Source of the DNA: Hormiphora californensis | Lineage: Eukaryota; Animalia; Ctenophora | Assembly (NCBI GenBank): GCA_020137815.1 | Contig: CM035350.1 | Span: 4,960,001-5,024,000 of the forward strand | Length of the DNA: 64,000 nt | Direction: 5' to 3' | Shown here: positions 4,551 through 43,855 of the stretch, piece after piece | Layout of the letters: each line of letters begins with the position of its first letter | Numbering within the stretch: the first letter of the stretch is position 1 | Notes under the pieces: generated by a model | Seen by the model: the letters and a program-made list of their open reading frames with translations, nothing else | Databases searched by the model: none | What the model was told of the DNA's origin: nothing | Translations under genes and position numbers: made by a program

Positions 4551-7500
4551 CTAGCAAGTGTCAGATCCGGAGACGACAAGTTTCGCCTCGTCAATGTTGA
4601 TATCCCCGATGTTAGCGAAGGTCAGGGTGATCTTCTGTCCGGTGGCACCGCTGGCGCAATCAACAAGGAGAGCAGAGGTCTTGCCCTTCATGGTAACGGT
4701 GGAGCAGGTGTTCTTACCGACCTTAACCTGGGAGGGGGAGAGGGTGGTTAGTGGTGTGTGTAGAGATCAACACCTTTAGAATTAATGTAGGAGTCAGGAG
4801 AAACAACCCAGAGTTATAGCTGTACAATGTACGTAATGTACGTTATTAACGGCTTGGAGATAAAGCTACTATGCCCCGTAGTTCTCTGATTTACATAATA
4901 TATGTAATGTACATACCACAACGTTGCCGGAGTTCTTGGAGCAGCACTTGTGCTTGTTGGAGATCTCAATAGAGGTGACGGTGAAACAGTACTTCATGTC
5001 AATGGTGACAACCTTACTCTTCTTGGACGCAGAGCAGTTGCCATCACAGGGGTACTTGCGGGGATAGGCAATGTATCCTGAATGGGGAGTGTGGTTAGTA
5101 CACTTGCAAGGATAGCTGAGTAGGGAAATGGGGTTAGGGTAATATTTTGGTGGAATGTGGGATTTGAACATATAATATAGATATTGCACTATATTATGCG
5201 TGTATCAATGATGACATACCGGTAGTCTTGATGGGGGTCTTGCCCTTGCAGATTTGGTATTTCTTGGTCTTGGTAATGTAGTGGACACCATTACAGGCAG
5301 AGTTCTTCATACAAGCCTTGGTGGCCTTGGGAAGGGTGCTGTAGGTAGTCTTGCCAATGGGGTTCTTCAGCTTGTAACCGGGACGGGGGTTCCACAGGCC
5401 GGTCGTGATGGGCAGGTAGACCTTGGTGAAGTCAACAGTGGACTCTGAGAAAGAGGAGTTAATTAGATGTCATAGAATGCTAACAGTAATTCTCAAATGG
5501 ACAACACAAAACAAGGGATTATATCAAACACTTACTTCCGTACACCCAGGCATTATCTCCCTCCTTCCATGTGACCTTCTTTCCAGTCCTCAGATGGTAC
5601 TTCTTGCTGGTGTAGTGGACCGAGTTACAGATGGGGTTCCTGGCACACTTGTACATGGCCTTGTTCCTGGTGGTGTAGCTGGTGGTTCCAAATCCAATGG
5701 CACCGGTGGTCTTGTAACCCTCCTTGTAGTACCAGACAGTATCTGAAAAAAGGGGCGGATGATAAATGAAGATCTTACAAAAAGAGTTCTCTTAATCAGT
5801 CAAACCGTAGCATTTATATCCGATTCATTACTAGTGCTCTCTCAAATAACTCATCACTCTCCCTCTATCTTACTCACTCCTCTTATCTCTCAACTTACTA
5901 TCGTAGGTGAAGTAGGGAGTGTAGTCAGTTCCAAGCATCCAGCACTTGTTTCCTGAGCTAGGTGTGAGGGAGGTACCCTGGGCAGTGTAATACTTCTTGC
6001 TGACATAATTCACGCCAGTACACTTGGAGCTCTTGGTACAGGCAACCATGGCCTTCTTGTAGGTCTTGTAACTGGTCTTCTGCTGACTGGTGAGGACCAT
6101 ACCGGGGATGAGATGTCCAGATCTTGAGTCGGTAGGCGACAACCTTGCTACCACGGAAGTAAGGCTTCATACCGGTCTTCTCTTCAGCGGTGTCCTTCTT
6201 ACCCAGCCTGTACTTCTTGGTAGCGGTCTTGGTGACACCAGTACATCCAGTCTTCTTGGAACAGGCAGCCATGGCCTTGGCGAGGGTGGTGTGGGTGGTG
6301 GAGTCAAGATAATCTCCGGTGATCTTATGACCATCGTCCTCTGTAGACCAGACATATCCATCCTTAATGATTCCCTTGCCACGCTTGGTGTAGGCCCGGT
6401 CGTTACCCTCACCCAGATAGAACACCTTGGTGGTGGAGGTGTAGTACTTCTTCTTGGACTCCTTGTAGGAGCATCCCTTGCACTTGGTGCTCTTGTTACA
6501 GGCAGTCAGACACTTCTTCTTGGTAGCATAAGCGGTCTTGCCCAACTTAGAATGGATGAAGGGTCCGTCAACCTTGTAGAAGTAGGTATAGTAGATAGAG
6601 TACTCGACCTTGGTCATCTTCTTGTGGTTCCTCACAAAGGCGGTGTAGTCGGAGTCGGTGTAAAGAGTCCATCCCTTGGTCAGATAGTACTTCTTGCTCT
6701 TGAGCACGAAACCACTGCAGGTCTTCTTGGCCTTGATACAGGCGGCAGCAGCCTTGGCCTCGGTGGAGTAGGATTTCTTGGTTTGGATGCTGCTCAGCTT
6801 GGTTCCAGTCTTCTTGGTGAAGTAGTACTTGGAGTGGAGAACGAAAGGATCTTCCTGCCTCCAGGCGGTACGGCCGTTGTTGGTGCTGAAGGTACTGCCA
6901 GTGTTGGTCCTGTACTTCTTAGTTCCCTCCTTGGTGACTCCCTTACAGGAAGTGGCCTTGGCACAGGCGGCGGTGGCCTTGGCGAGAGTGGTGTATTTGG
7001 TAGAATCGTAATATCCGCTCAGGGTCTTTCCGGCCTGTTTATCCCAGAAGTATTTGTCGGAGGCGAGGATGTCACCACGACGAATCCAAGAGACAGATCC
7101 GTACTTCTCGGTGGTGGTAGAAGACTTGTAGAGGGTGTACTTTCCTCCGGTAAGGGTCATTCCCTTACAGTTAGTGTTAGCGAGACAGTGCTTGAGGGCG
7201 GTATCTCTGTCAGTGTAAGTCTTCTTATCGGCCTTGGTTCCGGAGAGAGTATAAGGTCCCTTGGCGGTGAAGATCTCGTTACCGAAGTAGATATCACGTT
7301 CAGTGTAGTCGAATCCTCCCTTGATGTAGAGTTTCTTGCCCTTTCCAGCCTTGAGGGTAGTATCAGTAGCGAGCTGGTACTTTTTCTTTGAAACATATAC
7401 GATACCAGTACAGGTGGACTTGGTGGCACAAGCCTTGGCAGCCAATGGCAGGGTCTTGTAGACGGTCTTGTCCAGAGTCTTGTAGACGTAGTTGGGGTAC

Positions 7501-10500
7501 AAGGTGTAGCTGTATCCAAGAAGTCCGTAGGTGGTGGATCCCTTAACGTAGACCTTGTAGTTGGTCTTCTTAGTCTTTCCGGACTTGCCCTTAGTGCTAA
7601 GGAAGTACTTGTTGTCAGAACGTCGGACGACGGCCTTACACTTGCTGTTCTTCTTACAGGCAGCGAGGGCCTTGGCGAGAGTGGGGTAGGTGGTCTTGCC
7701 AATCATTCCTCCGAGAGTGTAGTTGGGGTAAGTTCCCCAGGAGTAACCACTCTTGGTGACGGATTTTCCTCCCTTCACCCAGCATTTAAGGAACTTGGGT
7801 CCAGGCATAGGAGTGGATCCGGTGTTGAGACGGTAGTTCTTCTTTCCCTCCTTGGTAACTCCGTTACACTTGGAGCTCTTGGCACAAGCCTTCAGAGCCT
7901 TCTTTTTGGTGGTATATTTGGTAGTGTTAACGTATCCAGACAGTTTGTAGGGCTGCTTGAAGGCCCAGGTATAGCCGCCGTAGGTAATAGTCATGGTGTA
8001 GGTAGTGGGCTTGTCTCCACCACGAATCCAGACGTTCTCGTAGAGAGAAGGCTCGATGGTATATCCCTTGCCCATCCTGTACTTCTTGAGCTTGGAGCTG
8101 TAGGTAACACCGGAACAGTCGGCCTTTTTCTTACAGGCAGCAGCAGCCAGAGCCATGGTCTTGTACGTCTTAGTGTCGTAGTCGTGTTCAATGGCATGGC
8201 CAACAATCTTGGTGTAGTAGATGTTGTTGTGGAGCGCCCACTTGCTTCCCTTGATGTAGGCAGTCATGGTCTTTGAGGAGCTTGGAGTGTTATTGTTGTT
8301 GGTCCTGTACTTCTTGGATCCCTCCTTGGAAACCCTTACAGGGTCAGATTTGGCACAAGCAGCGGTGGCCTTGGTGAGAGTGGTGTAGGTGGTAGTGCTG
8401 TCATATCCGATCAGACGGTATTTAGATTTCATAGCCCAAATGTATCCGTTGCTCTTCACGGCCTTTCCATAATGCTTCCACACCATGGATCCAACGGTGG
8501 GGGTAACGACACTGGTGTACTTGTAGACAGTAAACTTGCCTCCGGCATAAGAGAAACCGTTACATCCCTTCTTCTTCTTTGCCATGCACAGAGCCATGGC
8601 CTTGACAATGGTCTTAGCTGTTCCAAGCTTGGTACCCTTGAAGGAGCTGGGAGAATGTGCCTTGAAGGCTTCATTGGCGAAAGTGACGACATGTTCGGTG
8701 GTGTAGTAAGATCCCTTGTTGTACATGGCAGCTCCAGTGCTGGCTTTGCAGGCACCTCCAGTGAAGAGTTTGTAAGTGCTCTTCTTTACATAAGTGACTC
8801 CGGCACACTTGGCGTTACTGGAACACTTAGCGGCAGCCTTGGGGAAAGTCTTGTAGACCTTCTTGTCCAGAAGGCTGGTAGCGACGTATCCGGAGGTCTT
8901 GGTGTACCTGTAATCGTGAGATGGCTTGATAACAGCAGATTTCTGGTAGGTATCTGTTCCAGAGGATGAAGTAGGGATCTTGCCAGTCATCAGCCTGAAC
9001 TTCTTGGTGCCCTCCTTGTTGACACCGTTACAGGTGGTGGATTTAGCACAGGCAGTCAGAGCGGCGGTCTTGGTGGTGTAGGTCTTGGTATCGGTGGTGT
9101 CATATCCAGCGAGCTTGTAGTCCTCGAACTTGGTCCAGACCTTCTGGGCCTTGAAGGCAGATCCGGCTCCGAGTTTCACCCAACACTGCTGTTTACTGCC
9201 AGGTTCAGGGGCAGATCCAGTTGCGAGGTAGAACTTCTTGCTCTTGTAGGTGACTCCCTTACACTTGCTAGCGGCGGCACAAGCCTTCAGGGCAGCGGGG
9301 AGGGTGGTCTTGGCGGAGTAGGCACCATCAAGCTTCATGGGAGCTTCGTATTGCCAACTGTATCCGGAAACATTGATCAGCATAGACTGACGCTTCACCT
9401 CCTTTCCTCCCTTGAGGTATGAAATGTAGCCGGTCTTGGAGCTGATGGTGTAACCAGTGGAGAGGTAGTAGGTCTTGCTGGCCTTCTTGACGACACCAGT
9501 ACATGTGGAGGCCTTGATACAGGCGGTCTTGGCAGCGGCAACAGTGGTGTACTTCTTGACCGAGGCTGTCCATGTTGTAGTTGGACTTCTTGGTGAAGTA
9601 GTAGCTGCTATACTTCTCAGACTCGTCTCCCTTGATCCAGCAGCGCTTGCCAGACTTCTTGGTGGGGGTACTGCCAGTGTTGGTCCTGAAGTTCTTTGAT
9701 CCCATCCTGGTGATACCCTTACAGGTAGAGCTGGAGAGACAAGTAGCCATGGCCTTGGCAGCGGACTTGTACTTGGTGTTGCTATCGTATCCAGTCAGCT
9801 TGTATCCCTTCCTGAAGTCCCACATGTATCCCTTGGCGAGAACGAACTCTCCTCCCTTGATGTAGGCGAGTTTTCCCTGGGCCTCGGTGGTGGTGGCATC
9901 GCTGTGGGTGGTGTATGAGGTGGAGCTGACACGAGTGAAACCCTTGCACTTGCTGCTTTCAGCACAAGCCTTGTAGGCAAGAGCCTCAGTCTTGTAGCTC
10001 TTCAGCTTGCCCTTGGAGAGCTTGTAGGGAGCCTTGACAGTCCAGAATTCGTCTGAAAATGAGATTCTTTGTTAACTTTCCGATAACTTAACATAAAAGA
10101 TAGATTCATGGTTTGAAAGAGAAAGAATAGAAATGAAAATTGAGACTTACTGGTGTTGTACATGGTCCTGGTGGCCTTCTTGGTGCCTCCCTTGATGTAG
10201 ACAGTGTAGCCAGACTTGGAGCTAGGAGTAGATCCACTGTGAATCCTGTACTTCTTGGTTCCCTGTTTGGTAACTCCGTTACACTTAGAGTTCTTGGCAC
10301 AAGCCTTGAGGGCGGCAGCGAGGGTCTTGTAAGTCTTCTTGTCAGCGTATCCGCTGAGAGTGTAATCGGTCTTGTAAGTCCAGGTGTAATCGTTGGAGAC
10401 AGTGACGGAGCTGCTGGCAATGTAAGCCTTGAGACCGGTAGCCTTGCTCTTGGTTGACTTGGTGGCCTTGACGTATTTGCCGTTCTTCTTCTTGACAACT

Positions 10501-13500
10501 CCCTTACAGGTGCTGGCCTTGGCACAGGCAGCAAGAGCGTAAGAGACAGTGGTGTACTCGGTGGAGTCGAGTCCTCCGAGAGTATAGCCAGAGTAGGTAG
10601 ACCAGGACTTGCCTCCTCCGATGGTGGACTTGCCTCCCTTCACGTAGATTGTGTAGGTCTTGTGAGCCTCGGGGGTGGAGCCAGTGTTCAACTTGTACTT
10701 CTTGCTTCCCTCCTTGGTAACTCCGTTACACTTGGAACTGGCGGCACAGGCCTTGAGAGCCTTCTTGAGAGTGGTGTAGGTCTTGGTACTGGCAGATCCA
10801 GTCAATTTGAAGGGTTTCTTGACAGTCCAGGTGTATTTCTGAGAAGTCATTCCAAAGAGCTGACCTTGATGTTCTTGCCACCCTTGAAGTAGACCTTCCT
10901 GGTAGCGTAGTAGCTTGGCTTGTCACCAGTGTTGATCCTGTAGGTGTTCTTCTTCTGGTAGGTGACACCATTACACTTGGAGCTCTTGGCACAAGCAGAC
11001 TTGGCCTTGTCAAGAGTCTTGTAGGTTTTCGTATCGGCGTATCCAGACAGAGTAACTCCGTCAATGGTGGTCCAGTAGTAGGACTTGTCGAGTTTGTACT
11101 CGCTTCCCTTGATGTAGGCAACCTTTCCAGACGCGGTGGCCACTGTGGTTCCAGTGTTCTCCTGGTAGTAGGTGCTGGATTGTTTGGTAACTCCGTTACA
11201 CTTGCTGTTGGACACACAAGCCTTCATGGCGGCATTCAGACTTGTGCTTGGTGGTGGAAGCAGCTCCAGAAAGTTTCTTGCCAGAGTTCTTTGCCCACAT
11301 GTATCCTCCGTAAGAAGTGTAGGTTCCGATGTGTTCAGAGGCGAAGTAGCCAACCTTGATAGACTGGCTGTTGCCCTTGTTGAGCTGATACTTTCCAGAA
11401 GAGATCCTGGTGAATCCCTTGTAGGTACCCTTGCCGGCAAGAAGAGCATCGTTGACACTGTCGAGAGTGGTGTATGTCTTCTTGGTCTGGAGACTGGACA
11501 TGGTGTATGGAGAGGAAACCTTCATAACCCAAGCTGAAAGGAACATTGATTAGGAGATATATAAGACAATCAATTATCAACAATTTTTCAGGAAGGTTTT
11601 GATCATGAATCTTGAAAATACTTACATTTCTTGGAGTTGGAATGGATGTAGGTGAAAGAGCTCTTGTAGTTAGATCCAAGAACGAACACCTTTAGCCGGT
11701 AGTGGCAGTCTTAGAGTCTCCCTTTCGAGGTAGTACTTGCCCTTTCCGGTGTAAGAAACACCAGAGCAGGTAGATGCCTTGGAGGCACAAGCAGCCAAAG
11801 CGGCAGACTCGGTCTTGTAGTTCTTAGTGCTCAGGTTGGTCTTGAATTTATATCCGGAGACCTTAGTCCAGTAGTAGTCGTTGGAGATCTTGATGGTGCT
11901 ACCCTTCTTGTAGGCAGTGCTGGCACTGTTGGTCTTGGCGGTAGTGGAAGAGTTGAGGCGATACTTCTCGCTAGCCTCCTTGGTTACTCCCTTACATCCA
12001 GCGGCCTTGGAACAAGCCTTCAGGGCCTTGGCAAGAGTCTTGTAGGTTGTGTTATTGTAGTATCCAGAGTACTTAGTCTTGGACTTCTTGGACCAGTTAA
12101 CACCGGAAGCCTTGACGTTCTTTCCTCCCTTGACCCAGACGAGCGGTCCTTGCTGTAAAGAACAGATGAAGAGCTGTTGAGCCTGAAGGTCTTGGCCTTC
12201 TCCTTGGTGACACCAAGACACTTGGTGTTGGCAGCACAAGCAGTAAGGGCGGCCTTACGGGTCTTGTAAGTGGTCTTGTCAGCGTATCCCTTGAGGGTAT
12301 GAGGATACTTGAAGGACCAGCTGTAGTGGCGTAGGTAGTGCTGTAAGTCTGGTGGTAACCTTGGCTCTCCCTTCAGGAAGGCGGTCCTGGTAGAGTACTC
12401 AGTGATGGTGTATCCAGTGTTGGTCCTGTAGTTCTTGGGTCCTTCCTTGGTAACACCATTACACTTGGAGGAGGTGAGACAAGCAGCCATGGCCTTGGAT
12501 TTGGTGGTGTACTTGGTGGTACTAACATATCCAGATAGAGTGTATCCCTCCTTCTCGGTGAAGTAGTACTTCTTGTAGAGAACGTAGGGACTTCCTTGGA
12601 TGTAAGCGTGCATTCCCTTCTTGGTGGCGGTAGTGGCACTCTTGTTGGTCCTGTACTTCTTGGATCCCTCCTTGGTGATACCCTTACAGGCGGTGGCACC
12701 GGCACATACCTTGAAGGCCTTGCTGTCACTGGTATAGGTAACACTGTCGTAGTAACCAGTCAGCTTGGAATTCTTCTGGTGATCCCACATGTATCCCTGG
12801 CTGGCGACAAAGTTACCTCCCTTGGTGTATGCGGTGTATCCGATGGCCTGGGTGGCGGTGGTTGACTTGGTCTTCTGGAAGTTGGTTCCGTCGTGGTTGA
12901 AACCAACACACTTCTTGTCACCCTCACAGGCATCAAGTCCTTGGCAAGGGTGGTGTATTTGGTTCCGTAAGCCTGTTTGAACTTGTAGGGAGCCTTGGCA
13001 TGCCACACGAGGTCACCGTAGAAGATGGTGTGGGATGTCTTGGAAACTCCTCCCCTCACGTAGGCCTTGGCACCGGTCTTCTTGGAGACATCTGATCCGG
13101 TGTTCAACTTGTATTTCTTGGCTGAGTAGTAGGTATATCCGGTACAGGTGGAAGACTTGGCACAGGCCTTGGCGGCAGCAGCCTTGGTGGTGTATACTTT
13201 ACTTCCAGCACCTCCTAGCGCGTAGTTGGCCTTGGGAGTCCACTGGTAGTTATTGGAAACACTCACGCTGTCTCCCATGATGTATCCGGTGTAACCAGAT
13301 ACACTGGATGTGGTGGATGAGGAGTTGATCTTGATATTTGTTGGTTCCCTCCTTGGTAACTCCCTTACATCCGCTGGTGGAGGCACAGGCCTTGAGGGCA
13401 GCCTTGAGGCTGGTGTAAGTCTTGGTGCTCTTGTATCCAGAAAGCTTGGTGTTAGTCTTGGTAGTCCATGTCTTACCTCCATAGCTGACAGATTTGCCAG

Positions 13501-16500
13501 ATTTGATGTAAGCGGTCTTTCCCTTACCGGGATGGGGGGTTGCGCTACTGTTCAGAGCATATTTCTTGGTCTTGCTGGTGTAAGTAACTCCCTTGCAGCC
13601 ACTGAGAGCGGCACAGGCCTTCAAAGCCTTGTCACGGCTCTTGTATGTGGTCTTGCTAGCAGATCCGGAGAGAGTGAAGGGGTTCTTGTACTTCCAGACG
13701 TATCCCTTGCTGGTGATAGACATAGAAGTGAAAGAGATGACATCTCCGGTCTTGAGGTAGGTAGTCCTGTTCTCATTAGCGACCAGTTTCACGTCCTTGT
13801 ACAGGTAGTACTTCTTGCTTCCCTCCTTGACAACTCCCTCACAAGTAGCGGCAGCAGCACATGCAACCTTGGCAGAGGAAAGATCGGTATACTTGGTGCT
13901 CTTCAGACGAGTATTCAGGCTGTAGCCAGACTTCTTGATCCAGTAGTACTTGGAAGAGGAAGCAACCTCATCTCCCTTAATGTAAGCAACCTGGCCCTTG
14001 GCCTTGGTCTTGCTGGTGGTAGATCCGAGAGTGTACTTCTTAGCAGCGGTCTTTGTGATACCCTTACAGGAAGTGGAAGAGGCACAAGCCTTCATGGCAG
14101 CGCTGTCAGAGGTATAAGTGGTAGTTCCGTACTGGGTAGACAGTTTGTATCCAGAGAACTTGGGCCAGACTCGGTTGTTGTAGATGACATAAGCGCCACG
14201 CCTGATAAAAGCGATGTTGTTGGTCTTGGCGGTAAGGGTAGTCTTGGTGTTGAGAGAGAACTTGTTAGCAGCGGTCCTGGTGAAACCCTTACATTTCTTG
14301 TTCTTGACACAAGCATCAGCGGCCTTCTGAAGACTGGTATATGTCTTCTTGTCAGCTGCTCCGGAGAGGGCATAAGGAGAGTGAATACTCCATGCCTTTC
14401 CGGCGAAGATCATGTAAGAGGTGACCTTGACACGGTCTCCAATGACCCAGGAAGTACTCTTGGAGTCAGCAGTGATGTCACTGCCCTTCATGGCGTAGTA
14501 CTTTCCACTGGTCTTGGTAACACCAGTACAGCTGGTAGATTTGGCAGCACAGGCAGCCAGAGCCTTACTCTTGGAAGTGTAGGCAGTCTTTGCCAGTTTG
14601 TTACGAACTTGTAGCCAGACTTCTCAGTCCAGTAGAAATCGTTAGAAGTAGTGACTGAAGATCCCTGAACGTATGTCTTCTTTCCCTTAGAGGTGGTAGT
14701 GGCCTTGGAAGATTTCAGCTTGTACTTTCCTGAGGCAATTTTACTGACGGCCTTGCAACCGCTGGCAGCGGCACAAGCCTTGAGGGCGGCAGAAAGGCTA
14801 GTGTAGACCTTAGAACTGTAGTCCTTGGTGACAACAGCGTTGCTCTTGACAGTCCAGACGGTGCTGGATGCAGTGTAGCTCTTTCCCTGCTTGACGTATG
14901 AGATGACTCCGTTTCCGGGTCTGGGGGTAGATCCGGAGTAAAGAGCGTATGTCTTCGTCTTTTTGGTCTTGGTGACTCCGTTACACTTGGAGTTCTTAGC
15001 GCAAGCCTTGAGGGCCTTGTTCCTGGTCTTGTAGGTGGTCTTTCCGATTTTGCCTCCGAGGTACTTGGGCTTGTACATCTTCCAGGTGTAGTTGTTGTAG
15101 GTAATGGTGACGGTGGTGTATTTGACTTCCTTGCCTCCGATGAGGTAGATAGTGTAGTCGCTGTTGGGATGAATAGTTCCGGAGGTACCGAGATAGTAAG
15201 ATTGCTTCCGTGCTTGCTACACCCAGTACACTTGGCGGGTCCAGCCTTGGCACAAGCGGTTTGGCATTGGAGAGTGTGGTGTACTCTTAGATCCGATGTA
15301 TCGAACTCGTAAGAGCTCATCTCAGACCAGTAGTAGCCGTTTGAGGTGGTGAATCCACTGCCCTTGATAGGCTTCCATTCCCTTCTTGGTACTAGGGGTA
15401 GAGCAGTGTTCAGCTTGTAGTTGCTGGTTCCTCCTTGGTAACTCCCTTACATTGGAGTTGCTAGCGCAAGCAGTGAAAGCCTTGCTATCGCTGGTGTATT
15501 TCGTCTTACTGGCGTATCCAGTCAGCTTCTGTCCCTCGTAGAGACCCCACAGACGTCCTCCGTTAGGAATGGCGGTTCCCTTCTTGATGTAGGCGACACT
15601 GCCGACCTTCTGGGTCTTGGTGGTCTTTTTGTTGAGCTTGTAGTTTCCAGACCGTATCTGGTGAAACCCTTACAGGCCTTGGCCTTCTCACAGGCAGCGA
15701 AGGCTTGGCTCGGGTGGTGAGCTTGCTTCCGTAGGGTGAGGCCAAGGAAATGGGGTGGACGAGGTACATGTGAGCGTGAGACCTGGTGGCGTTTTGCTGG
15801 TGTAGGCAGATCCCTTGACGTAGGCAGTCTTTCCAGAGGCAGAGGAAGGAGTGTATCCAGTGTTGGTCTTGTGCACTTTGGTACTCTGAAAAAGAGAGAG
15901 AGATGTTAAAAAGTTGACTTGAAACACACAAAAAGAAGTCAGTTAAAGGTTAGTCGTCAGTCTCTTACATGAGTAGTGACACCCATACACTTGGCGTTAG
16001 AGGTACAGGCAGTCATGGCAAGAGCCAGAGTTTTGTAAGACTTGATGTCTCCACTAAGTTTATAGTCACTGTATTTGGTCCAGTAGTAATCCTTCTTGGT
16101 GAACCACCTCACCTGGGTATAGTCGGTCAGTCATTCTTGCATAAATTACTGTCATATATCAGTAATTGTTGTTAAATTTCGTTAGTTTCAATTACTGTCA
16201 GTCAATTTGATTTCTATGTGAATTGTTTGTTAACTTACTTGTCTTCTTGTAGACCTTGAGTCCAGTTGATTTCTTGAAGCTACTTCCCTTTCCAAGGTAG
16301 TACTTCTTTTTCTTGTACACGACACCGGTACACTTGCTGTTAGCCTTACAGGCAGCCAGGGCCTTGGCCTTGGTGGTGTAGGCAGTTGAAGAGAGCAGAC
16401 CGCCAGACATGGTGTAGTCGCTCTTGGCGGTCCAGGTGTAGCCTCCATAGGTGGATACTGATCCATACTTGATGAAGATGGCCATGTTTTGCGGGTTTGT

Positions 16501-21742: not shown

Positions 21743-21917
21743 TAGTAGGAGCGCTTAGAGCATGCACGTGCAAAAGTCGTGCGCCACACGAAATTTAGGC
21801 TACTGTCACTCCTTTGCTTTGCAACGAATCAAAAAATGGCCCTCAAGTTTTTTGTAGATCTCGACAAGAGGGGTGGTGCACGACTTTTGGCAGGAACTGA
21901 TCTAAGCGCTCCCACTA
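21743..21917. mobile_element. MITE (~175 bp) with ~45-bp imperfect terminal inverted repeats
   Basis: Left end tagtaggagcgcttagagcatgcacgtgcaaaagtcgtgcgccac; reverse complement of right end tagtgggagcgcttagatcagttcctgccaaaagtcgtgcaccac. TA at both ends. Confidence 0.8.
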
Positions 21918-23296: not shown

Positions 23297-23320
23297 GAGA
23301 GAGAGAGAGTGAAGAAACAG

Positions 23321-30618: not shown

Positions 30619-30685
<67 letters not shown>

Positions 30686-33600: not shown

Positions 33601-36600
33601 GACCGCTGCTAAGAAGTACATCCTCGGATCTACCACCAGCAAGACCAAGGCCAAGGGCCAGGTTGCTTACATTAAGGGAGATGAGGTTGCTTCCTCTTCC
33701 AAGTACTACTGGACCAAGAAGTCTGGCTACAGCTTGAATACCAAGCTAAAGAGCACCAAGTATAAGGATCTTTCCTCTGCCAAGGTTGCATGTGCTGCTG
33801 CCGCTACTTGTCACGGAGTTGTCAAGGAGGGAAGCAAGAAGTACTACATGTACAAGGACGTGAAACTAGTACCAAATGGTGATAGGACCACCTACCTCAA
33901 GACCGGAGGCGTAATTTCCTTCACTACCATGTCAATCACCAGTCAGGGATACGTCTGGAAGTACAAGAATCCATTCGCTCTCTCCGGATCTGCTAGCAAG
34001 ACCACATACAAGAGCCGTGACAAGGCTTTGAAGGCATGTGCCGCTCTCAGTGGCTGCAAGGGAGTTACTTACACCAGCAAGACCAAGAAATACGCCCTGA
34101 ACAGTAGCGCAACCCCCCATCCCGGCAAGGGACAGACCATCTACATCAAAGCTGGCAAGTCTGTCAACTACGCTTACCATGTTTGGACCACGAAGAGTGG
34201 CAGCAAACTGGTCGGATACAAGGATAAGAAGACTTACACTAGTAGGAAGGCAGCCATGAAGGCATGCGCCTCCACCAGTGGATGTAAGGGAGTTACCAAG
34301 GAGGGAACCAACAAGTTTAGAATCAACTCTTCCACCACCGTCAAAACAGTTTCAGGTATTTTCATATTATTTGGATAAACAAAAACAATGACATTCTTTT
34401 GACCTCTGTAAAATGTAATTTCATTGTGACATTGTAACTCGATATTAAAATAATTGCTACAATCCATCTCTCCCATGCCAGGAATGACTGCCTATATCAT
34501 GGGTGATGCCACTGAGACTTCCAACAACTACAACTGGACCCCCAAGAAAAAGTACCAGCTTGGAAGTGCTGGAAAGACAAAGTACACCACTAAAGCCAAG
34601 GCTGCTGCTGCTTGTGCCAAGTCCTCCACATGTACAGGGTAGGTGATATCAAAAAGAGTTATCACTAGATCTTGATTATAACGAAATAATACAGCTGTAT
34701 TTAGGACGCAACACATGTTTCATGGAATCCCTGACGGGAAACCAATCATCAGGCGACCTTAGATCTTAATTATATAAACACAATAAACTGTTAAATACTA
34801 CGTGTGCTATTTTCAGTTTTCCTTGATCGTTTTTCTTTGAAATCTGACAAACTAATCGATGTTTCTTTTTCAGATTCACCAAGTACGGAGACAAGAACTA
34901 CAAGATTAACACTGGCTCTGATATCACTAGCAAATCTACATCCATTGCCTACGTTCGAGGCGGATATGACAAAACTGAACACACCCTCTTCTATGCAGGT
35001 TTGTCTCTTTCACTTCTTGATGACATTATGGTAACCAGGGAATAATTTTGCTGCTATATCGCTAAATATTTTCACTTTCAGACCGTGTGTACCATGCCAA
35101 GTCTCCCTACAAGTACGCCAAGGCATATGGCTCCACCTACACTACCCTTACCGCTGCCCTCGATGCGTGCGAGAAGGACAAGGCCTGTCTCGGGTTCAAC
35201 TACAACGGCTCCAAGTTCCAGAAGACAAAGTCCACCACCGCCACTGCCACTGTCGGCTATGTGGCCTACAAGAAGGGAGGACACTTTGTTACCAGCCAGG
35301 GTTACATGTGGGATCAGCAGAAGAATACCAAGCTGACAGGTTACTACGATAAGGTCACTTATACCAGTGACAGCAAGGCCTTCAAGGTATGTGCTGGATC
35401 TACAAGCTGTAAGGGTATCACCAAGGAGGGAACCAAGAAGTACAGGGCCAATAGCAGTGCTACTGGAAAGACAAAGAAGGGGATGACCGCCTACGTCCAA
35501 GGAAGTCCCTACGTTCTCTATAACAAGTACTACTTCACCGAGAAGGATGGATACACTCTATCTGGATACGTCAGCACAAAGAAGTACAAAACCAAATCCA
35601 AGGCCATGGCTGCTTGTCTCACCTCCTCCAAGTGTAATGGTGTTACCAAGGAAGGAACCAAGAACTATAGGATCAACACTGGATACACCATTAGTTCTTA
35701 CTCTACGAGGACTGCCTACCTGAAGGGAGGAGCCAAGGTTAACTTCCAGAGCTACAAATCTACCTATGCAGGCTACAGCTGGACTTTCAAGTACCCTCAT
35801 ACCCTCAAGGGATACGCCGACAAGAAGGTTTACAAGACTCGCAAGGCCGCCCTTACTGCCTGTGCTGCCAACACCAAGTGTCTTGGTGTCACCAAGGAGA
35901 AGGCCAAGACCTTCAGGCTCAACAGCTCTTCATCTGTTTTGAAGAATAAGGATAGGTCTGTCTGGATTAAGGGAGGAAAGGTCGTCAAAGCTTCCGGTGT
36001 CAACTGGTCCAAGAAGTCCAAGACCAAGCTATCAGGATACTACAACAAAACTACATACAAGACTCTTGCCAAGGCCCTGAAGGCTTGTTCCAAGGCCGCT
36101 GGATGTAAGGGAGTAACCAAGGAGGGTAGTGAGAAGTATCGTCTCAACTCTTCCACTACCTCCAAGACCAACAGTGCCAGCACTGCCTACAAGAAGGGTA
36201 GCACCATCAAGATCTCCAACGACTACTACTGGACTAAGGTCTCCGGATATAAATACAAGACCAATCTTGAGAAGAAGAACTACAAGACCGAGTCTGCCGC
36301 TTTGGCTGCTTGTGCCTCCAAGGCATCTACCTGCTCTGGTGTTTCTTACACCGGAAAGGGCAAGTACTACCTCGGAAAGGGAGACTCTAAGACTGCCACC
36401 ACCGGAGCTAAGGTGTTCGTTCTTGGATCTAACTACAAGAGCTCTTTCACCTACATCCATGCCAACTCCAAGAAGAGTAAGTATTTTTGAGATTTATGAT
36501 CAAAACCTTCCTGAAAATTTATTGATAATTGATTGTCTTATATATTCCTAATCAACTGTTCCTTTCAGCTTGGGTTATGAAGGTTTCCTCTCCATACACC

Positions 36601-39600
36601 ATGTCCAGTCTCCAGACCAAGAAGACATACACCACTCTCGACAGTGTCAACGATGCTCTTCTTGCCGGCAAGGGTACCTACAAGGGATTCACCAGGATCT
36701 CTTCTGGAAAGTATCAGCTCAACAAGGGTAATACCCAATCTATCAAGGTTGGCTACTTTGCCTCTGAACACATTGGAACCTACACTTCTTATGGAAATTA
36801 CATGTGGGCAAAGAACTCTGGCAAGAAACTTTCTGGAGCTGCTTCCACCACCAAGCACAAGACCCTCGCTGCCGCCATGAAGGCTTGTGTGTCCAACAGC
36901 AAGTGTAACGGAGTTACCAAACAGTCCAGCACCTACTACCAGGAGAACACTGGAACCACTGCCACCACTTCATCTGGAAAGGTTGCCTACATCAAGGGAA
37001 ATAAGTACAAGTTGCAGAGCGACTACTACTGGTCTGAGCTTGATGGGGTTACTCTGTCTGGATACGCAGATAAGAAAACCTACAAGACTCTCACCACTGC
37101 AATTTCTGCTTGTGCCAAGAACAAAAAGTGTAATGGTGTCACCTATGAAAAGGCTAAGACCTACAGGATCAACACTGGTGACAAGCCCAGCTACTACGCC
37201 ACCAGGAAGGTCTACTTCAAGGGTGGTGAGAATATCAAGGTTGTGGCCTTCAGCAAGCTAAGCCAGGGATACACCTGGTCTGTGAAGAAGCCTTTCAAGC
37301 TCACCGGATCAGCTGACAAGAAAACATACACAACACTCAAGAAGGCTCTCAAGGCATGTACCAAAAACTCCAAGTGTAACGGAGTAACCAAGGAGGGAAC
37401 TAAGAAGTACAAACTGAACACCGGGGCCACTCCTGAGGCTCACAAGACCTACAAGGTCTATGTCAAGGGAGGCAAATCGGTGGTTGCCGGTGGAAAGGCT
37501 TGGAGTACCAAGAGTGACAAGACCCTCGGAGGTCTCGGATCAAAGGAGTATACCAGTGCTACTGCAGCCTTCACTGCTTGTGCCAAGACAAGTGCCTGCC
37601 AGGGCGTTGTCAAGAAGAAGACTGGAAAGTATGTCCTTGCCACCAAGTCTACCTCTAAGAAGGCTACCGGAGTTACATCTTACACCGTCGTCAGGTTAGT
37701 ATCTCAATTCTCAAAAATCATTTCGTAATCTTTAGTTCCATGCCCTTACCAATAAACTGTTTCAGTTCTGTGACGGTGGCAAATGACTATACCTGGACTT
37801 CCACATCTGATAACAAACTTACTGGATACGCTGACAAGAAGACCTACAAGACCCTCGCTGCCGCCCTCAAGGCTTGTGCCAGTAACGCCAAGTGTAACGG
37901 AGTTACCAAGGAGGGAACTAAGAAGTACAGGGCTAACACTGGTAGTGAGCCAACATCCAAGTCTGGAATGACGGCATATGTCAAGGGAGGTCTCCAGAAG
38001 TCAAGCAGGACTGTCTACCATACCAGTAAGAACATTTATAAACATTTCTTCTTCTTAGATATTTATCCAGTTTACTAACCAGACCTTTTTCAGATGGATT
38101 CTGGACCGTCAAGGCTCCATACAAGCTCTCCAAGGGCAAGCTGAAGGCCTACAAGACCGAGGCTGCTGCCTACAAGGCCTGTGCTGGGAACAAGAAGTGT
38201 AAGGGATTCACCCGTCACAGTGCCACATCCTACATCACCTACAGCGATGCCACTCTTACCGAGGCCCAGGGAATGCTCACCTACTTGAACGGTGGACCCT
38301 TCGTCCAATCCAACGGATACGCCTGGGGATACCATCCTGGCGCAAAACTCACCGGATATGCTGATACTAAGAAGTACAAGAAGGCCTCCAAGGCCATGAG
38401 TGCATGTGTCACTAGTACAACCTGTAAGGGTGTAACCCGGGAGGGATCTGGAAACTACAGGATCAACACTGGTAGCACCCCCACTACCAAGAAGGGAATG
38501 ACCTGCTGGATCAAGGGAGACAAATCTGAGAAGTACAGCAAGTACTATTTCACCAAGAAGTCAGACTACACAATGAGCAGTCTTGGTACCAAGAAGTACA
38601 CCACTGTTGCCGCTGCCAAGACCGCCTGTATCAAGTCCTCCAAATGTACTGGTGTCGTCAAGAAGGCCAGTAAGACCTACTACCTCTCCACTGGTTACAC
38701 CATCAGCACCAAGAGCGGATATCTGACCTATATCAAGGGAGGAAAGGAAATGAATCGACAGAGTCTCCTCATGAACAAGAGCGGATACAGCTGGCAATAC
38801 CTTGCTCCTGCCAAACTTAGCGGCAACTACAAGGCCCAAACTACCCTACCTGCTGCCCTCAAGGCGTGTGCTGCTGACAGCAACTGTCACGGAGTCACCT
38901 ACAAGGCTAAGAAGTACTACCTCTCCAAGGGATCTGCCCCTGAGCCTGGCAAAGGTACACAAGCCTGGGTGAAACTAGGATCTGGTTCTTCTTTCAAGGC
39001 CCAGAAAGTCTGGACTCAGTACAACGACCACAAGCTGGAGAGTTACGACAAGACCAACACCAAGGTATACACCACCAAGACCGCTGCTATGACTGCCTGT
39101 GCTAAATCCACCACCTGTAACGGTGTCTTCAAGAAGAGCTCTAAGAAGTTCAGGATCATGACCGATAAGACTCCAGTGGCATCTTCCGGGACTTCCGTCT
39201 ACCTTAAATCTGCAGTTATCAAACCTTCTCATGACTACCGGTACACCTCTACCAGTGGGTACTTGGCAACTGCTCTTCTGGACAAGAAATCTTACAAGAC
39301 CTTCCACAAAGCCGCTAAGGTTTGTTCAAGCAACGCCAAGTGTATGGGAATCACTAAGGTGAAGAAGGGAGTCTACAAGTTGTACTCCAGCGGAGCCTGC
39401 AAGGCCAGCACTGGGGCTGTTATGTACAGCAAGGGATCTTACTACAAGACCGAGCATGTTGTTTCTTTCGCTAACGAAGCCTTCAAGGCACAGTCTCCCA
39501 GCTCCTTCAAGGGCAAAAAACTCGGAACGGCCAAGACCATTGAACTGGCCATGGTTGGATGTTTGAAGAACAAGAAGAAGGGATGTAACGGCTTCGCTTA

Positions 39601-42600
39601 TGCCGGAGGAAAGTTCACTCTCTACAAGTACACCAGTGTCGTTACCCCCACCGTTGGATCCATGGTGTGGAAGCATTATGGAAAGGCCGTCAAGAGCGAC
39701 GGATACATTTGGGCTATGAAGGAAAAGTCTCGTCTAATCGGATATGACAGCAAAACATCATACACCACCCTCTCCAAGGCTACCTCTGCTTGTGCGAAAT
39801 CTGACACCTGTAAGGGAGTCACCAAGGAGGGAGCCAAGAAGTACAGGACCAACAACAATAACACTCCTAAAACTTCAAAGACCATGACTGCCTACATCAA
39901 GGGAAGCAAGTGGGCGCTCCACAACAACATCTACTACACCAAGATTGCTAGCCATGCCATTGAAGACGATTACGACAAAAAGACTTACAAGACCATGGCC
40001 TTGGCTGCTGCTGCCTGTAAGAAGAAGGCCGACTGTTCCGGTGTTACCTACAGCTCCAAGACCAAGAAGTACAGGATGGGCAAGGGATACACCTTTGAGC
40101 CTTCTCTCTACGAGAACATCTGGGTTCGTGGTGGAGTGAAACCTACTACTTATTCCATGAGCCTCAGTTACGGCGGCTATACCTGGGCCTTCAAGCAGCC
40201 CTACAAGCTGTCTGGATACGTTAACACTACCAAATATGCCACCAAGAAGAAGGCTCTGAAGGCTTGTGCCAAGAGCTCCAAGTGTAACGGAGTTACCAAG
40301 GAGGGAAAGAAGAACTACCGTCTCAACACCGGATCCACCCCTGTCCCTGGACCCAAGTTCCTTAAATGCTGGGTGAAGGGAGGAAAATCCGTCACATCTC
40401 ACTGTAAGTTATCCTATGATTTCAAATACTTTCGAATTTCCCTAGATTTTTAGGAATTTGTCTAAAAAACCTTCTTCTGATTGCAGCTTATACCTGGGGA
40501 ACCTACTCTGGGTACACACTCGGAGGACAGATTGGCAAGACGACATATGCTACCAGGTCCAAGGCCCTCACTGTGTGTACTAAGAACAGCAAGTGTAAGG
40601 CCGTCGTGCGACGTTCTGACAACAAGTACTTCCTCAGCTCCAAATCCATCTCCACCAAGGTTAGAAGCTAACTGGTTAAACTCAGAGTTTCTAACACGTC
40701 GGTTTTTTAGTTTACTTTTTATTCAATAACTTCGGTGCATTCGTGTTACCTACATTTCAAACTAACTTCAAACTAACTCTTCTCTTTCAGACCAAGAAGA
40801 GCAACTACAAGATTTACAAGAAGGGATCTAGCGCGGTTGCCAGCAGCGGTTACTCCTACTCCACCATGACAAACTACGTGTATGGAGGTCTGGACAAGAC
40901 CGTTTACAAAACAATCGATGCTGCCGGTGCTGCGTGTGCCAAGAAGTCTACCTGTACTGGTATTGTCAAGGTCAGCAAAGGCAAGTACCAGATTGCTACC
41001 GGATCCGACATCACGAAGGGAACTGGCAAGACTCTGTATGTGAAGGGAGGCAAGGATTACACCTCCAGGGATATCTACTTTGGGGCTGAGATGTGGACCG
41101 CCAAGGCCCCCTACACCCTCTCCGGGAACCAAGGCCGATACTAAGACATACAAAGACAGGGATAATGCACTGAGGCATTGTCTGGCCAACACCGCTTGTA
41201 ATGGAGTTACTCTGACCGGAGGAAAGTACACCCTCTACAAATCCTCTACCACCACCGAGAAAGATGGATCTGTCTCTTGGATTCGTCGTGGTGACATCCT
41301 CGCTTCTAATGGTTACTTCTGGGATAAACAGAAGGGTAAAACTCTCACTGGATATTTCGATTCTACCAAATACACCACTCTCGCCAAGGCCACCGCCGCC
41401 TGTTCCAAGGCCACTTCCTGTAAGGGAGTCACCAAGGAGGGAACCAAGAAGTACAGGACCAACACTGGCAGTACCTTCAGCACCAACAACGGCCGTACCG
41501 CCTGGAGGCAGGAAGATCCCTTCGTTCTCCACGGTGGAATGTACTACACCAAGTTGTCTGGTAAGAAGCTGAGCAGCATCCAGACCAAGAAGGCTTACGC
41601 CACCGAGGCCAAGGCTGCTGCCGCCTGTTTCAAGGCTGCTAAGACCTGCACTGGATTTGTTCTCAAGAGCAAGAAGTACTACCTGACCAAGGGATGGACT
41701 CTTTATACCGACTCCGACTACACAGCCTTTGTGAGGAACCACGAGTAAGTATTGACATAATTCTACCAATATTGTAAGCTAAGTACGTAACTCCCCCATA
41801 TAATTTGGTAATTAACTCCTCCCCTCTCTCTCCCAGGAAGGTTGTGAATGTAGAATACACAACTATGTACGGTGGATACTCCTACTCAGTGAAGGGGCCC
41901 TTCATGCACGAGCCCAAGAAGTTTGGAAAGACCGCCTACGCCACCCTCAACAAGTGTCTGGCTGCTTGTAACAAGAGTACCAAGTGTAAGGGATGCAGTT
42001 ACTTTGGCAAAAAGAAGAAGTACTACACTTCCACTGATAGTAAGGTGTACCTAGGAGGAGGCAAGGATAAGGCATTCAGCAAGGGAGGTAAATCTGTCGT
42101 TAACAACAGCTACATCTTCGAATCCAAGGCATCTGGTACTAAGATCAAGGGAGATTATCTTGACTCAACCACCTACACCAGCCTCGGTAAGGCCATGGAG
42201 GCCTGTGCTAAGAAGACCGGATGTACCGGGTTCACCAAGACCGGTAAAAACAAGTACAGACTGGGCAAGACCAGCACTGTTGTAACGAAGAAGGGAATGC
42301 AGGCGTATCTCAAGGGAAGTACCGTGACTGCCTACCATCTGAAACTGTGGCCACATATGTCCGATATGGTTATTACCGGACAAGGGAAGACCGCCCTGAA
42401 GACCAAGAAGAAGGCCATGATTGCGTGTTCTAAGAACGCCAAGTGTACTGGTGTGAACAAGGTGGGAGGAAAGTATTACCAGGCTACCGGTGATAGCTAC
42501 ACCGTCAAATCAGGAGGAGAGGCCTGGGTCAAGGGGTCCTCTTACACTCCTTCCTTCACATATGACAGTAAGTTGATTCAGAGAAGGAGAGGGAGAGGGA

Positions 42601-43855
42601 ACTGAGGGAGTTGAACAGGGAGGGTGAAGAGATGAGATGGGAAATATGGCGAGAGGGGATGGGTGAAAGTAGAAAGTTTAGCAATTCAGCCAATTTCTAA
42701 CAACTCTCCTAAACCCCACTAGACACTGTCTGGTACTACAAGGACGGATACAAGACTAGCGGAGACATTGGATTCGGAACCACCAGCTACACCTCTAAGG
42801 ACAAGGCTATGTACTGGTGTGTGCGTAACCCCATCTGTAACTCGGTTCACTACACAAAAAAGAAGTATCATTTGAGAAGTGGAACCAAGGTTACCGAGGC
42901 TGAAAACGACAAGGCCTGGACATACGGAAGTAAGTGTAATTAGAACTAGAAATGAATTTATTAAGTAGTTGATGAATTTAATAGGGTTAGCACTTGATGA
43001 ATTTATTCAACAGATCAATTAGTTGAATCATGGGACTGATATCAAGCCACTAATACTCGATGTTTCAGCTTCCAAGGTTGATTTCACAAAGGTTGCACTG
43101 CCTGTTGCGGGAGGAATGTGGAACCCCCGCCCTGGATATAAACTGGGTAGCAAACTTGAGAAGAAGAAGACCTACAAGACACTACCCTTGGCTGCCAAGG
43201 CCTGTTTGGCTAACCCCAAGTGTTCTGGAATCATGTATACTACCAAGACCAAAACATACACCATTCATGGGTCTGACCAGGTCTCTTCTGGAAAGGGTAG
43301 GTGATCACATTAAATCGGCAAACTACTCAGTCGAATCATTTGCCAATATTATGAGAATCGATTAAACTATGTAAATAAAATTAACCCATGGTCTTAATCT
43401 CAGGATACATTGCATACCCTAAGAAGTACGTCTGTGACGGAGCCTGTAAGGTGACAAAGAAGGGTAAGGTTCTTTCCATCGACCTCAAGTACTGCTTCAA
43501 GGTTCACAGGATGGAGATCTCCAACAAGGCAAATTGCTGCTCCAAGAATACCGGCAAAGTTGTTGTAAGTAAAAATACCCTGCAGAAAATAACACCACAG
43601 TCCACAAACCTAAAATACATCACCCCTACACTGCAGTCGTTATTAACGGGAAATATTAAAAACAAATTCTCACCTCAGATCAAGAATGGTTCCAAGACGT
43701 GTGCCAGTCTCACCATGAACGGCAAGACCTCCGCCATGAAGTTGGATTGTGCGAGTGGAGCCGTGGGTACGAAGATCACCATGACCTTCGCTAACATCGG
43801 GGATATCAACCTCGTCGGTCTTGGTCTCGTCGTTGAGGGTTCGGATGCATGCTAA
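23993..43855 (+). CDS. Gene B: giant secreted protein (~5,300 aa): signal peptide, Gly-Pro tracts, 2 x (tectonin beta-propeller + PAN-like module), 53 PAN/apple-like modules, C-terminal F-type-lectin-like domain
   Basis: Exons: 23993-24452, 24507-24632, 24732-26010, 26093-26369, 26518-26625, 26759-27013, 27079-27428, 27594-27873, 28032-28139, 28250-28393, 28528-28858, 28967-29103, 29438-29571, 29689-29815, 29891-30155, 30324-30488, 30732-31425, 31525-31667, 31751-34355, 34482-34638, 34874-34998, 35082-36476, 36569-37694, 37766-38025, 38094-40403, 40487-40659, 40791-41744, 41837-42567, 42723-42929, 43069-43296, 43404-43564, 43679-43855. Splice sites are GT..AG with compatible phases. Starts [17 protein letters not shown] and ends ...[12 protein letters not shown]. 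Apparent frameshifts near 25590, 30144, 31290 and 41125. Confidence 0.88.
24047..24445 (+). repeat. Coding Gly-Pro repeat tract 1 (GPG, GDDGP, then 11-aa [11 protein letters not shown] units of 33 bp)
   Basis: Direct translation of ORF 23993-24472. Confidence 0.9.
24537..26310 (+). other. Tectonin-type (TECPR/tachylectin-1-like) beta-propeller 1 of gene B, six repeats, interrupted by a Gly-Pro tract
   Basis: Six W-x-x-I/V-x-G-x-L-x-x-I-x-V...V-W-G-V-N-x-x-x-x-I-Y/W repeats: [48 protein letters not shown]. Confidence 0.85.
24735..25665 (+). repeat. Coding Gly-Pro-Lys repeat tract 2 ((GPG)n, [16 protein letters not shown])
   Basis: ORFs 24695-25801 and 25591-26100, joined across a probable indel error at ~25590. 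Confidence 0.9.
26915..27810 (+). other. Tectonin-type beta-propeller 2 of gene B, six repeats
   Basis: Repeats [48 protein letters not shown]. Intron positions match those of propeller 1. Confidence 0.85.
29113..29392. repeat. ~100-bp tandem repeat (2 good copies, 1 degenerate) filling a gene-B-specific intron
   Basis: tactagtttacagccagagtttacaa...cactccgtccctgatcagacactgcaacactcacaatatgctg occurs at ~29113 and ~29214, with a decayed copy at ~29325. Confidence 0.85.
30624..30681. repeat. (CT)n microsatellite in a gene B intron
   Basis: Directly visible. Confidence 0.95.

What the first reader, a model, noticed from the sequence alone, without database searches (positions are those of the whole stretch)
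4551..43855. Head-to-head pair of giant secreted cationic Lys/Tyr-rich modular proteins: candidate two-component adhesive or extracellular fibre system
Seen: two divergently transcribed paralogs, each with a signal peptide and no transmembrane segment. They share 53 colinear ~70-80-aa modules dominated by K, T, Y, G, A and S, with few acidic residues and many KY/YK/KKY neighbours, plus a common Cys-rich C-terminal cap, but their N-termini are entirely different. I do not recognise this architecture as a named protein family. Established: adjacent Lys and Tyr(DOPA) drive wet adhesion in mussel foot proteins and sandcastle-worm cement, GPGGX repeats are elastomeric in flagelliform silk, and tectonin propellers are lectins. 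Inference: a ~0.5-MDa polycationic rod with lectin and elastic or His-rich heads suits a glue, prey-capture or mucus-net material in an aquatic invertebrate. If the genome is a ctenophore (my guess from general sequence style only), colloblast adhesive is an obvious candidate.
Basis: partly seen in the sequence, partly recalled or inferred. Interest (0 to 1): 0.92.

Follow-up and report, generated by a model that had tools for sequence, protein, structure and literature searches.

The report
Comb jelly giant PAN-domain chain proteins
A sea-gooseberry comb jelly carries two back-to-back genes (one shown to be spliced into RNA) for likely secreted, positively charged proteins of about half a megadalton, each predicted to be a chain of about 55 PAN/apple domains tipped with lectin-like folds, which makes them untested candidates for the still unidentified sticky secretions these animals use to catch prey.

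Summary
Two divergent paralogs (A about 4,430 aa, B about 5,335 aa, pI about 9.9) share 53 one-to-one colinear modules and a Cys-rich cap. A is spliced in RNA contigs from 3 studies; B-specific sequence occurs in those runs. The host is a Pleurobrachia-type ctenophore (92% match to a P. bachei model).

The modules are not unknown. They are predicted to fold as PAN/apple domains with one disulfide, arranged in a 3/6-module super-repeat. The cap is a galactose-binding-like (F5/8, fucolectin-type) sandwich, and B's head has two tectonin propellers and a Gly/Pro tract.

The mussel-type Lys/DOPA reading is not supported: KY/YK pairs occur at chance level, most Tyr sit in fixed fold positions, and distant colinear homologues are far less cationic.

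Best reading: a secreted multivalent glycan/polyanion-binding rod in a sticky secretion. Colloblast glue is plausible but untested, as no tissue data were available. No full-length relative or paper on the family was found. The scan had not noted this before.

The parts
4551..19550 (-). Gene A: 15 exons, about 4,430 aa, pI about 9.9; signal peptide + His-rich head with 2 degenerate PAN modules + Gly/Ser/Lys linker + 53 PAN modules + cap
   Evidence: Model; all 14 introns matched by RNA joints (the 3 head introns were taken from those joints, the other 11 were predicted independently)
19460..19550 (-). A exon 1: predicted signal peptide
   Evidence: Hydropathy; joint 19372/19460 in 3 of 4 runs laid
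18580..19372 (-). A head: His-rich (10.5%) region with two degenerate single-disulfide PAN modules, then Gly/Ser/Lys linker
   Evidence: domain E 5e-4 and 6e-9 against the module profile, 2-sequence search
5220..18497 (-). A array of 53 PAN/apple-type modules (72-83 aa) with a 3/6-module super-repeat
   Evidence: fold from the paralogous B triad
4551..5077 (-). A C-terminal cap, 8 Cys, galactose-binding-like (F5/8, fucolectin-type) beta-sandwich
   Evidence: Fold inferred from homologue P0132 (62% identical to A 4256-4431)
22480..23094 (+). Single-exon glutathione S-transferase gene between A and B (not part of the system; taxon marker)
   Evidence: Pfam GST_N/GST_C; 91% to Pleurobrachia bachei sb/3471919 over 70% of the query
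23993..43855 (+). Gene B: about 5,335 aa, pI about 9.95; signal peptide + Gly/Pro tract + 2 tectonin propellers + 2 head PAN modules + 53 PAN modules + cap
   Evidence: Model only; B-specific strings in RNA contigs; P. bachei sb/3472233 92% identical over 174 columns
23993..25665 (+). B signal peptide and GPGG/GGPKG low-complexity tract (51% Gly, 27% Pro, 69 GPGG), interrupted by one tectonin-like blade (exon 24507-24632)
25666..28393 (+). B head: tectonin propeller, PAN module, tectonin propeller, PAN module
   Evidence: Pfam PF19193 above cutoff in 4 exon pieces, best E 1.5e-26; PAN modules
28528..43296 (+). B array of 53 PAN/apple-type modules, colinear with A
   Evidence: AF2 triad 35753-36433 pLDDT 92.1, pTM 0.75
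43403..43855 (+). B C-terminal cap (two exons), galactose-binding-like sandwich
   Evidence: Pfam F5_F8_type_C_2 E 0.055; fold via homologue
57174..64000 (+). 96.6% duplicate of 42187-49010 holding B's last modules and cap without a 5' part (uncollapsed haplotype or partial duplication)
   Evidence: Self-BLAST; junction

Best explanation
These are two paralogous ctenophore genes for likely secreted half-megadalton proteins, each predicted to fold as a chain of about 55 single-disulfide PAN/apple domains, which would act as long multivalent binders of anionic glycans and sugars in a sticky extracellular secretion. Shown: gene structure, splicing of A, colinear 53-module arrays, super-repeat, cationic composition, purifying selection, Pleurobrachia-type host. 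Predicted: PAN fold of the modules, sandwich fold of the cap, tectonin propellers in B. Inferred: the protein is stored in secretory granules and released as an extended rod (roughly 150 nm if each module adds about 3 nm; an estimate, not computed). Its Lys-rich domain faces would bind sulfated or acidic glycans and prey or microbial surfaces by avidity. The cap and the propellers would add sugar-specific or self-association ends, and B's Gly/Pro tract would give stretch. Cohesion would come from charge and lectin cross-bridging, as proposed for flatworm Mlig-ap1, rather than from DOPA curing. Among sticky secretions the tentacle (colloblast) glue is the single likeliest site (about 0.25-0.3 overall), with body or pharynx mucus next.
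For: PAN fold: AF2 triad pLDDT 92.1; Foldseek 9 hits at E<=1e-3, all factor XI/prekallikrein apple domains, best 3.3e-6; VIA best Z 7.6, rmsd 2.2 over 66 residues to the sugar-bound Toxoplasma MIC4 apple 5, then lectin SML-2 and the HGF N domain; Pfam PAN_1 and PAN_4 are the families hit by most single modules (8 and 6 of 77, all weak); Atlas leads are PAN clusters (0.88-0.89). Cap of homologue P0132: Z 11.4, rmsd 2.5 over 100 residues to CBM32/F5-8 modules, fucolectin Z 9.3. Tectonin in B, and tectonin plus this PAN type recur together in P0026, P0151 and Bolinopsis XP_063680274.1. dN/dS A vs B 0.36 over 3,779 codons. Module identity is position-specific across distant homologues. The Mnemiopsis colloblast-candidate list holds a PAN-repeat protein (ML150914a) and a signal-peptide protein with TECPR and fucolectin domains (ML020113a) (PMC6278862 supplement rows and Table 1).
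Against: No tissue, cell-type or protein-level evidence. A shared fold shows no function, and many PAN domains bind proteins, not sugars. VIA Z for the modules is under 8. The cap model is weak (pLDDT 62.7) and lacks the recalled fucose-binding motif. The two Mnemiopsis candidates have other architectures (EGF repeats; 87-aa PAN spacing) and are not shown to be orthologues. Distant colinear homologues are only mildly cationic, so strong charge is not the conserved core. Rod geometry was not measured. Lysine-coated probes detached sooner than plain ones, but so did copepod carcass (bioRxiv 2020.06.27.175059 section 10), which does not discriminate.
Confidence: 0.5

Rival explanations
1. Internal or envelope structural fibre: the rods are ruler-like components of mesoglea, basement membrane, tentacle core or egg coat, assembling by PAN-PAN contacts rather than sticking to foreign surfaces.
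For: Fixed module order conserved at 25-50% module identity in distant homologues, and a 3/6-module super-repeat (identity peaks at lags 6 and 12; permutation p 0.0005), suggest register-dependent assembly. Charge is not conserved.
Against: Tectonin heads are swapped or inserted at different places among homologues, which fits ligand-binding accessories. No collagen, ZP or vWD polymerisation module was found by Pfam in the 18 window pieces scanned.
Confidence: 0.22
2. Innate-defence net: a polycationic multi-lectin that agglutinates bacteria on the body surface or in the gut.
For: Tectonin and fucolectin-type folds are recognition lectins in other animals (recalled). High pI. Smaller secreted PAN+tectonin relatives exist (P0151).
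Against: A strictly ordered 53-module array held across species is more than agglutination needs. No lytic domain was detected.
Confidence: 0.15
3. Mussel-type catechol glue: Tyr is converted to DOPA and cooperates with neighbouring Lys in a two-component wet adhesive.
For: Y 7-8.5% and K 15%. Some Tyr columns vary and may be exposed. A report of catechol-like compounds in colloblasts is recalled (Townsend and Sweeney 2019; not among the 7 papers listed, not read).
Against: KY/YK at chance. Two-thirds of Tyr lie in 8 columns, with the most conserved ones exchanging with F/W. The chain is predicted folded, unlike disordered mussel foot proteins. Distant homologues have Y 5-7%, K 7-11%.
Confidence: 0.1
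4. Artefact or pseudogene pair: the frameshifts are real and no giant protein is made.
For: 22 breaks in A and 4 in B in this assembly. No full-length homologue in the protein collections.
Against: RNA contigs differ from the window by indels at 5 of the 22 modelled break sites in the 12 rows shown (67 rows not shown). All 14 A introns are spliced. dN/dS is 0.36.
Confidence: 0.03

Closest known systems
Tandem PAN/apple proteins: Toxoplasma MIC4, Sarcocystis SML-2, Eimeria MIC5, factor XI/prekallikrein heavy chain, HGF N domain
   Same: Predicted module fold; secreted; tandem arrangement; several of these bind sugars or heparin (PDB titles).
   Different: About 55 modules against 4-11 (numbers recalled). 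About 2 Cys per module against 4-6 (recalled). Below Pfam cutoff. The inter-domain arrangement does not superpose on the FXI disc (TM 0.27, rmsd 13.5). pI about 9.9; 3/6 super-repeat.
Macrostomum lignano Mlig-ap1/Mlig-ap2 (PMC6410801; passages read)
   Same: Pair of giant secreted proteins (5,407 and 14,794 aa); ap1 is strongly cationic with lectin domains and proposed to be cohesive, and polyanions block it.
   Different: ap1's charge lies in K/R-rich regions and its domains are C-type lectin, vWD and EGF. The two flatworm proteins differ in architecture, whereas A and B are 78% identical paralogs. No homology was seen; function here is untested.
Mnemiopsis colloblast candidates ML020113a and ML150914a (PMC6278862; sections 6 and 8 and supplement rows read)
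   Same: Same phylum; same domain kit (TECPR + fucolectin; PAN repeats).
   Different: Different architectures and sizes (2,242 and 1,374 aa).
Bolinopsis microptera XP_063680274.1 (uncharacterized LOC134815646) and Pleurobrachia bachei sb/3472233, sb/3461833
   Same: Same single-disulfide PAN type. The Bolinopsis protein also has tectonin propellers and a GGPP tract; sb/3472233 is a 92% identical fragment of B.
   Different: All are uncharacterised. The Bolinopsis protein has kringles and only 4 PAN modules; the P. bachei models are fragments.
Mussel foot proteins and sandcastle-worm cement (recalled)
   Same: Lys- and Tyr-rich, basic, secreted.
   Different: Those are short, disordered and DOPA-modified; these are predicted folded domain chains with no excess of Lys-Tyr adjacency.

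Membership tests
PAN/apple domain superfamily | PAN/apple fold (helix packed on a curved antiparallel sheet) | tested here: met
   Predicted model pLDDT 92.1; Foldseek E 3.3e-6 to FXI/prekallikrein apples; VIA Z 7.6, rmsd 2.2, 66 aligned to MIC4 A5, with PAN-type rows filling the top of the list
PAN/apple domain superfamily | Pfam PAN_1/PAN_4 score above gathering cutoff | tested here: not met
   Best 20.6 bits vs 27 (PAN_4) and 18.6 vs 21.4 (PAN_1) on the window pieces. Some homologues pass (P0024, P0045, P0191).
Canonical PAN/apple (2-3 disulfides; pattern recalled) | 4-6 conserved Cys per domain | tested here: not met
   Two Cys columns (rows were picked by a Cys pattern, so invariance is partly by construction). 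Independently, 126 and 124 Cys for about 55 modules plus an 8-Cys cap.
PAN lectins (MIC4, SML-2) | Carbohydrate binding | not testable with these tools
   Needs glycan array
Galactose-binding-like (F5/8 type C, CBM32) fold | Beta-sandwich fold | tested here: met
   Homologue P0132 cap, low-confidence model (pLDDT 62.7): VIA Z 11.4, rmsd 2.5, 100 aligned; 49 chains at Z>=8; Foldseek best E 1.8e-3
F-type lectin (fucolectin) | His...Arg-x-Asp-x4-Arg/Lys fucose-binding motif (recalled) | tested here: not met
   By eye, the loop before the Cys-Cys pair lacks the Arg, Asp and final Arg, and the domain is about 105 aa (sequences printed); the motif itself comes from no call
Tectonin (TECPR) beta-propeller | Pfam PF19193 above cutoff | tested here: met
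   Four B exon pieces at 52-94 bits vs cutoff 30
DOPA-based wet adhesives | Lys-Tyr adjacency above chance in a disordered chain | tested here: not met
DOPA-based wet adhesives | Tyr hydroxylation and a co-expressed tyrosinase | not testable with these tools
   No genome held; no proteomics
Colloblast genes (sensu PMC6278862) | Absent in Beroe and Haeckelia; tentacle-bulb or C52/C53 expression | not testable with these tools
   No ctenophore genome or transcriptome search by species was available

The most novel reading that the evidence does not exclude
A and B are the main structural proteins of the Pleurobrachia colloblast glue: titin-like super-repeat chains of about 55 PAN domains that stick instantly and reversibly by charge and lectin avidity, with no curing. 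That would be the first molecular identity for the phylum-defining ctenophore adhesive and a folded-domain glue design unlike mussel, barnacle or flatworm systems.
Probability: 0.25. Interest if true: 0.88.

Novelty: new variant of a known kind. Interest (0 to 1): 0.62.

Why it matters
The colloblast adhesive is described as an unknown proteinaceous glue (bioRxiv 2020.06.27.175059, abstract). This pair gives concrete, testable candidates with exon coordinates and a domain map. Even if it serves another matrix, it is an undescribed ctenophore family with a far longer PAN/apple chain than any I recall. It uses a single-disulfide PAN variant that falls below Pfam cutoffs, so it would be invisible in earlier domain screens, and its module order is conserved like a molecular ruler.

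Tried and rejected
Sequence search of PDB with the module profile gave no hit under E 0.1 and the cap gave none; the folds were found only by structure. Searches for long relatives found one P. bachei model at 815-2,325 aa and none at 2,238-5,000 aa (weak evidence, and B's length exceeds that range). The profile search found 387 proteins at E<=1e-3; the best of the 150 listed were fragments. Names were looked up for 30 proteins (28 array homologues, 2 GSTs), and most are unnamed. The metagenome scan with the cap gave 1 locus from 189 candidates. No host genome is held, so a tyrosinase, copy number and the reality of the downstream duplicate are open. No reads were laid on gene B, so its introns are predictions. 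No prokaryote-genome control was obtained (one search gave no result). Alignment A2 was staggered by overlapping rows and not used. Earlier-findings look-ups by sequence, words and place gave nothing on this family. Literature, 10 searches: ctenophore+tectonin 0 papers; colloblast+eosinophilic 0; none of the 25 listed of 323 contains 'PAN domain'; the accession search hit only PMC6278862. Subscription papers and bioRxiv supplements could not be seen and may mention these genes. Rejected: A and B as two haplotypes (different heads and intron sets, dS 0.46); a transmembrane or GPI anchor (the weak hydrophobic stretch at B's end is part of the cap); Pfam's weak Vip3A_N, NTP_transf_6 and similar hits (below cutoff). 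Run depth was not used to rank expression.
Full report
Observation. Six-frame translation and a frameshift- and intron-aware parse give two divergent genes. A is on the minus strand, 19550 to 4551, 15 exons, 4,431 aa with 22 breaks read as X. B is on the plus strand, 23993 to 43855, 5,335 aa with 4 breaks. Computed masses are 480 and 567 kDa, pI 9.92 and 9.95. Both start with a hydrophobic segment and have no convincing membrane span (hydropathy only). A GST gene lies in the 4.4 kb between the start codons. A module profile built from 77 intact modules finds 54 and 55 copies. The 53 array modules of A each best match the same-numbered module of B. Each head holds two further modules (one of A's is weak).

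Expression and assembly quality. Of 21 runs listed, 4 from 3 studies were laid on 4200-23200. Of the 15 joints shown (17 not shown), 12 have GT-AG ends on the minus strand, and two more intron sites appear with a few letters between the sides. Together these match all 14 introns of A, 11 of which had been predicted without the RNA. The bins 20050-21317 have no cover in any run, so the signal is RNA, including in the two runs whose type was a guess. RNA contigs carry indels at 5 of the 22 modelled break sites among the 12 rows shown (67 not shown), so the breaks are likely assembly errors; the others were not checked one by one. No reads were laid on B. Three contig ends that did not fit A match B: two exactly (also matching the downstream duplicate) and one with one mismatch only in B at 39357-39394. 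B-type RNA is therefore present in the same plankton runs, which does not show co-expression in one cell. dN/dS between A and B is 0.36 over 3,779 codons, with dS ranging 0.16-0.83 along the gene, which suggests patchy gene conversion.

Host. The GST is 91% identical to Pleurobrachia bachei sb/3471919, and P. bachei sb/3472233 is 92% identical to B residues 2294-2467.

What the modules are. An AlphaFold2 model of a three-module unit of B (25-row alignment from the window) has pLDDT 92.1 and pTM 0.75, with long strands running between modules. Foldseek's 9 hits at E<=1e-3 are all factor XI/prekallikrein apple domains. VIA-align ranks Toxoplasma MIC4 apple 5 first (Z 7.6, rmsd 2.2, 66 aligned), followed by other PAN-type chains (SML-2, HGF N, leech antiplatelet protein, AMA1; class of some rows recalled), with unrelated rows at Z 3.4 or less. 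Z is under 8, but three methods agree, with weak Pfam PAN hits and Atlas leads. The variant keeps one Cys pair (about 2 Cys per module) and scores below Pfam cutoffs. Modules are only 33% identical to each other on average, with peaks at lags 6 and 12 (0.37-0.39) and a smaller one at 3 (permutation p 0.0005 in both genes): a super-repeat, not a homogenised tandem repeat. The cap was folded from homologue P0132 (pLDDT 62.7) and matches CBM32/F5-8/fucolectin sandwiches (best Z 11.4), without the recalled fucose-binding motif. B's head has two tectonin propellers and a tract of 51% Gly and 27% Pro. By eye, the first blade of propeller 1 is separated from the rest by about 290 residues of that tract.

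Relatives. The profile search gave 387 proteins at E<=1e-3. Among 24 homologues I chose from these, their cluster members and L001, many keep consecutive module identity (for example modules 47-51 in P0020 and 10-16 with one exception in P0169) at 25-50% module identity; others map less cleanly. The more distant ones have net charge +3 to +5 per 100 residues against +12 to +13 here. Tectonin and this PAN type are combined differently in P0026, P0151 and Bolinopsis microptera XP_063680274.1, which adds kringles and a GGPP tract. The same PAN type also scores in uncharacterised reptile C-type-lectin mosaics, so the module is widespread, while the 53-module array was seen only in named ctenophore and unnamed records. 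No full-length relative was found (weak evidence).

Testing the DOPA idea. KY and YK are at shuffle level, and only KKY is enriched, as part of a conserved strand. Of 488 Tyr in the 77 modules, 327 lie in 8 columns, and three columns that are 99-100% aromatic exchange among Y, F and W. Exposure was not computed, so some Tyr could still be modified. The mussel analogy is not supported by sequence.

Mechanism. The best reading (0.5) is a secreted, extended, multivalent binder of anionic glycans and sugars in a sticky secretion, cross-bridged by charge and lectin ends, with B adding propellers and an elastic tract. The fold is predicted; binding, shape and site are inferred. The closest working analogy is flatworm Mlig-ap1 (PMC6410801, passages). 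Circumstantial support for the tentacle: among 189 Mnemiopsis colloblast candidates are a PAN-repeat protein and a TECPR+fucolectin protein (PMC6278862, sections 6 and 8 and supplement rows), but they differ in architecture and are not shown to be orthologues. The preprint on Pleurobrachia colloblasts (abstract, passages and section 10 read) calls the glue unknown and gives no discriminating chemistry. From PMC11184263 I saw passages only: Beroe lacks the 354 tentacle-associated genes, which makes it the natural test. Rivals are an internal or egg-coat ruler fibre (0.22), an immune lectin net (0.15), catechol glue (0.10) and artefact (0.03).

Verdict. This is a real, expressed, undescribed ctenophore family. 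It is a new variant of a known kind (tandem PAN/apple protein) in an extreme architecture. No paper on it was found in 10 searches of the open library. Interest 0.62; 0.88 if it proves to be the colloblast glue (probability 0.25).

Noticed in passing
window 22480-23094 (+): The GST between the genes is about 11 residues shorter near its N-terminus than its closest homologues, and an RNA contig has a loose end at 22606 that appears to encode the missing segment: a deletion allele, a paralog or an assembly error.
   Followed up: partly
window 57174-64000 vs 42187-49010: 96.6% duplicate carrying B's 3' end, starting abruptly inside a module, just after a 463-bp satellite (50067-56746, 14.6 copies). 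Uncollapsed haplotype or partial duplication.
   Followed up: partly
window A vs B arrays: dS varies from 0.16 to 0.83 in blocks along the inverted paralogs, suggesting gene conversion between the arms.
   Followed up: partly
window 24507-25665: A single tectonin-like blade exon is separated from the rest of propeller 1 by about 290 aa of GPGG repeats, as if an elastic tract were inserted in a propeller loop.
   Followed up: no
P0026 (686 aa): Homologue with a tectonin propeller inserted inside the array after about the fourth module, showing domain shuffling.
   Followed up: partly
P0024 (697 aa, 11.6-kb contig): Single-ORF protein with a hydrophobic N-terminus and 9 single-disulfide PAN modules, source organism unknown.
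   Followed up: no
P0052, P0053, P0102: Large proteins (two named from reptiles) alternating C-type lectin domains with unannotated single-disulfide PAN-like modules.
   Followed up: no
L001 2050-2052: Intronless contig of a related gene (modules 44-53 plus cap) with an in-frame stop inside module 52: error or broken copy.
   Followed up: no
window 2297-2932, 45439-45941, 60442-60943: 28-bp and 40-bp minisatellites flanking the locus.
   Followed up: no
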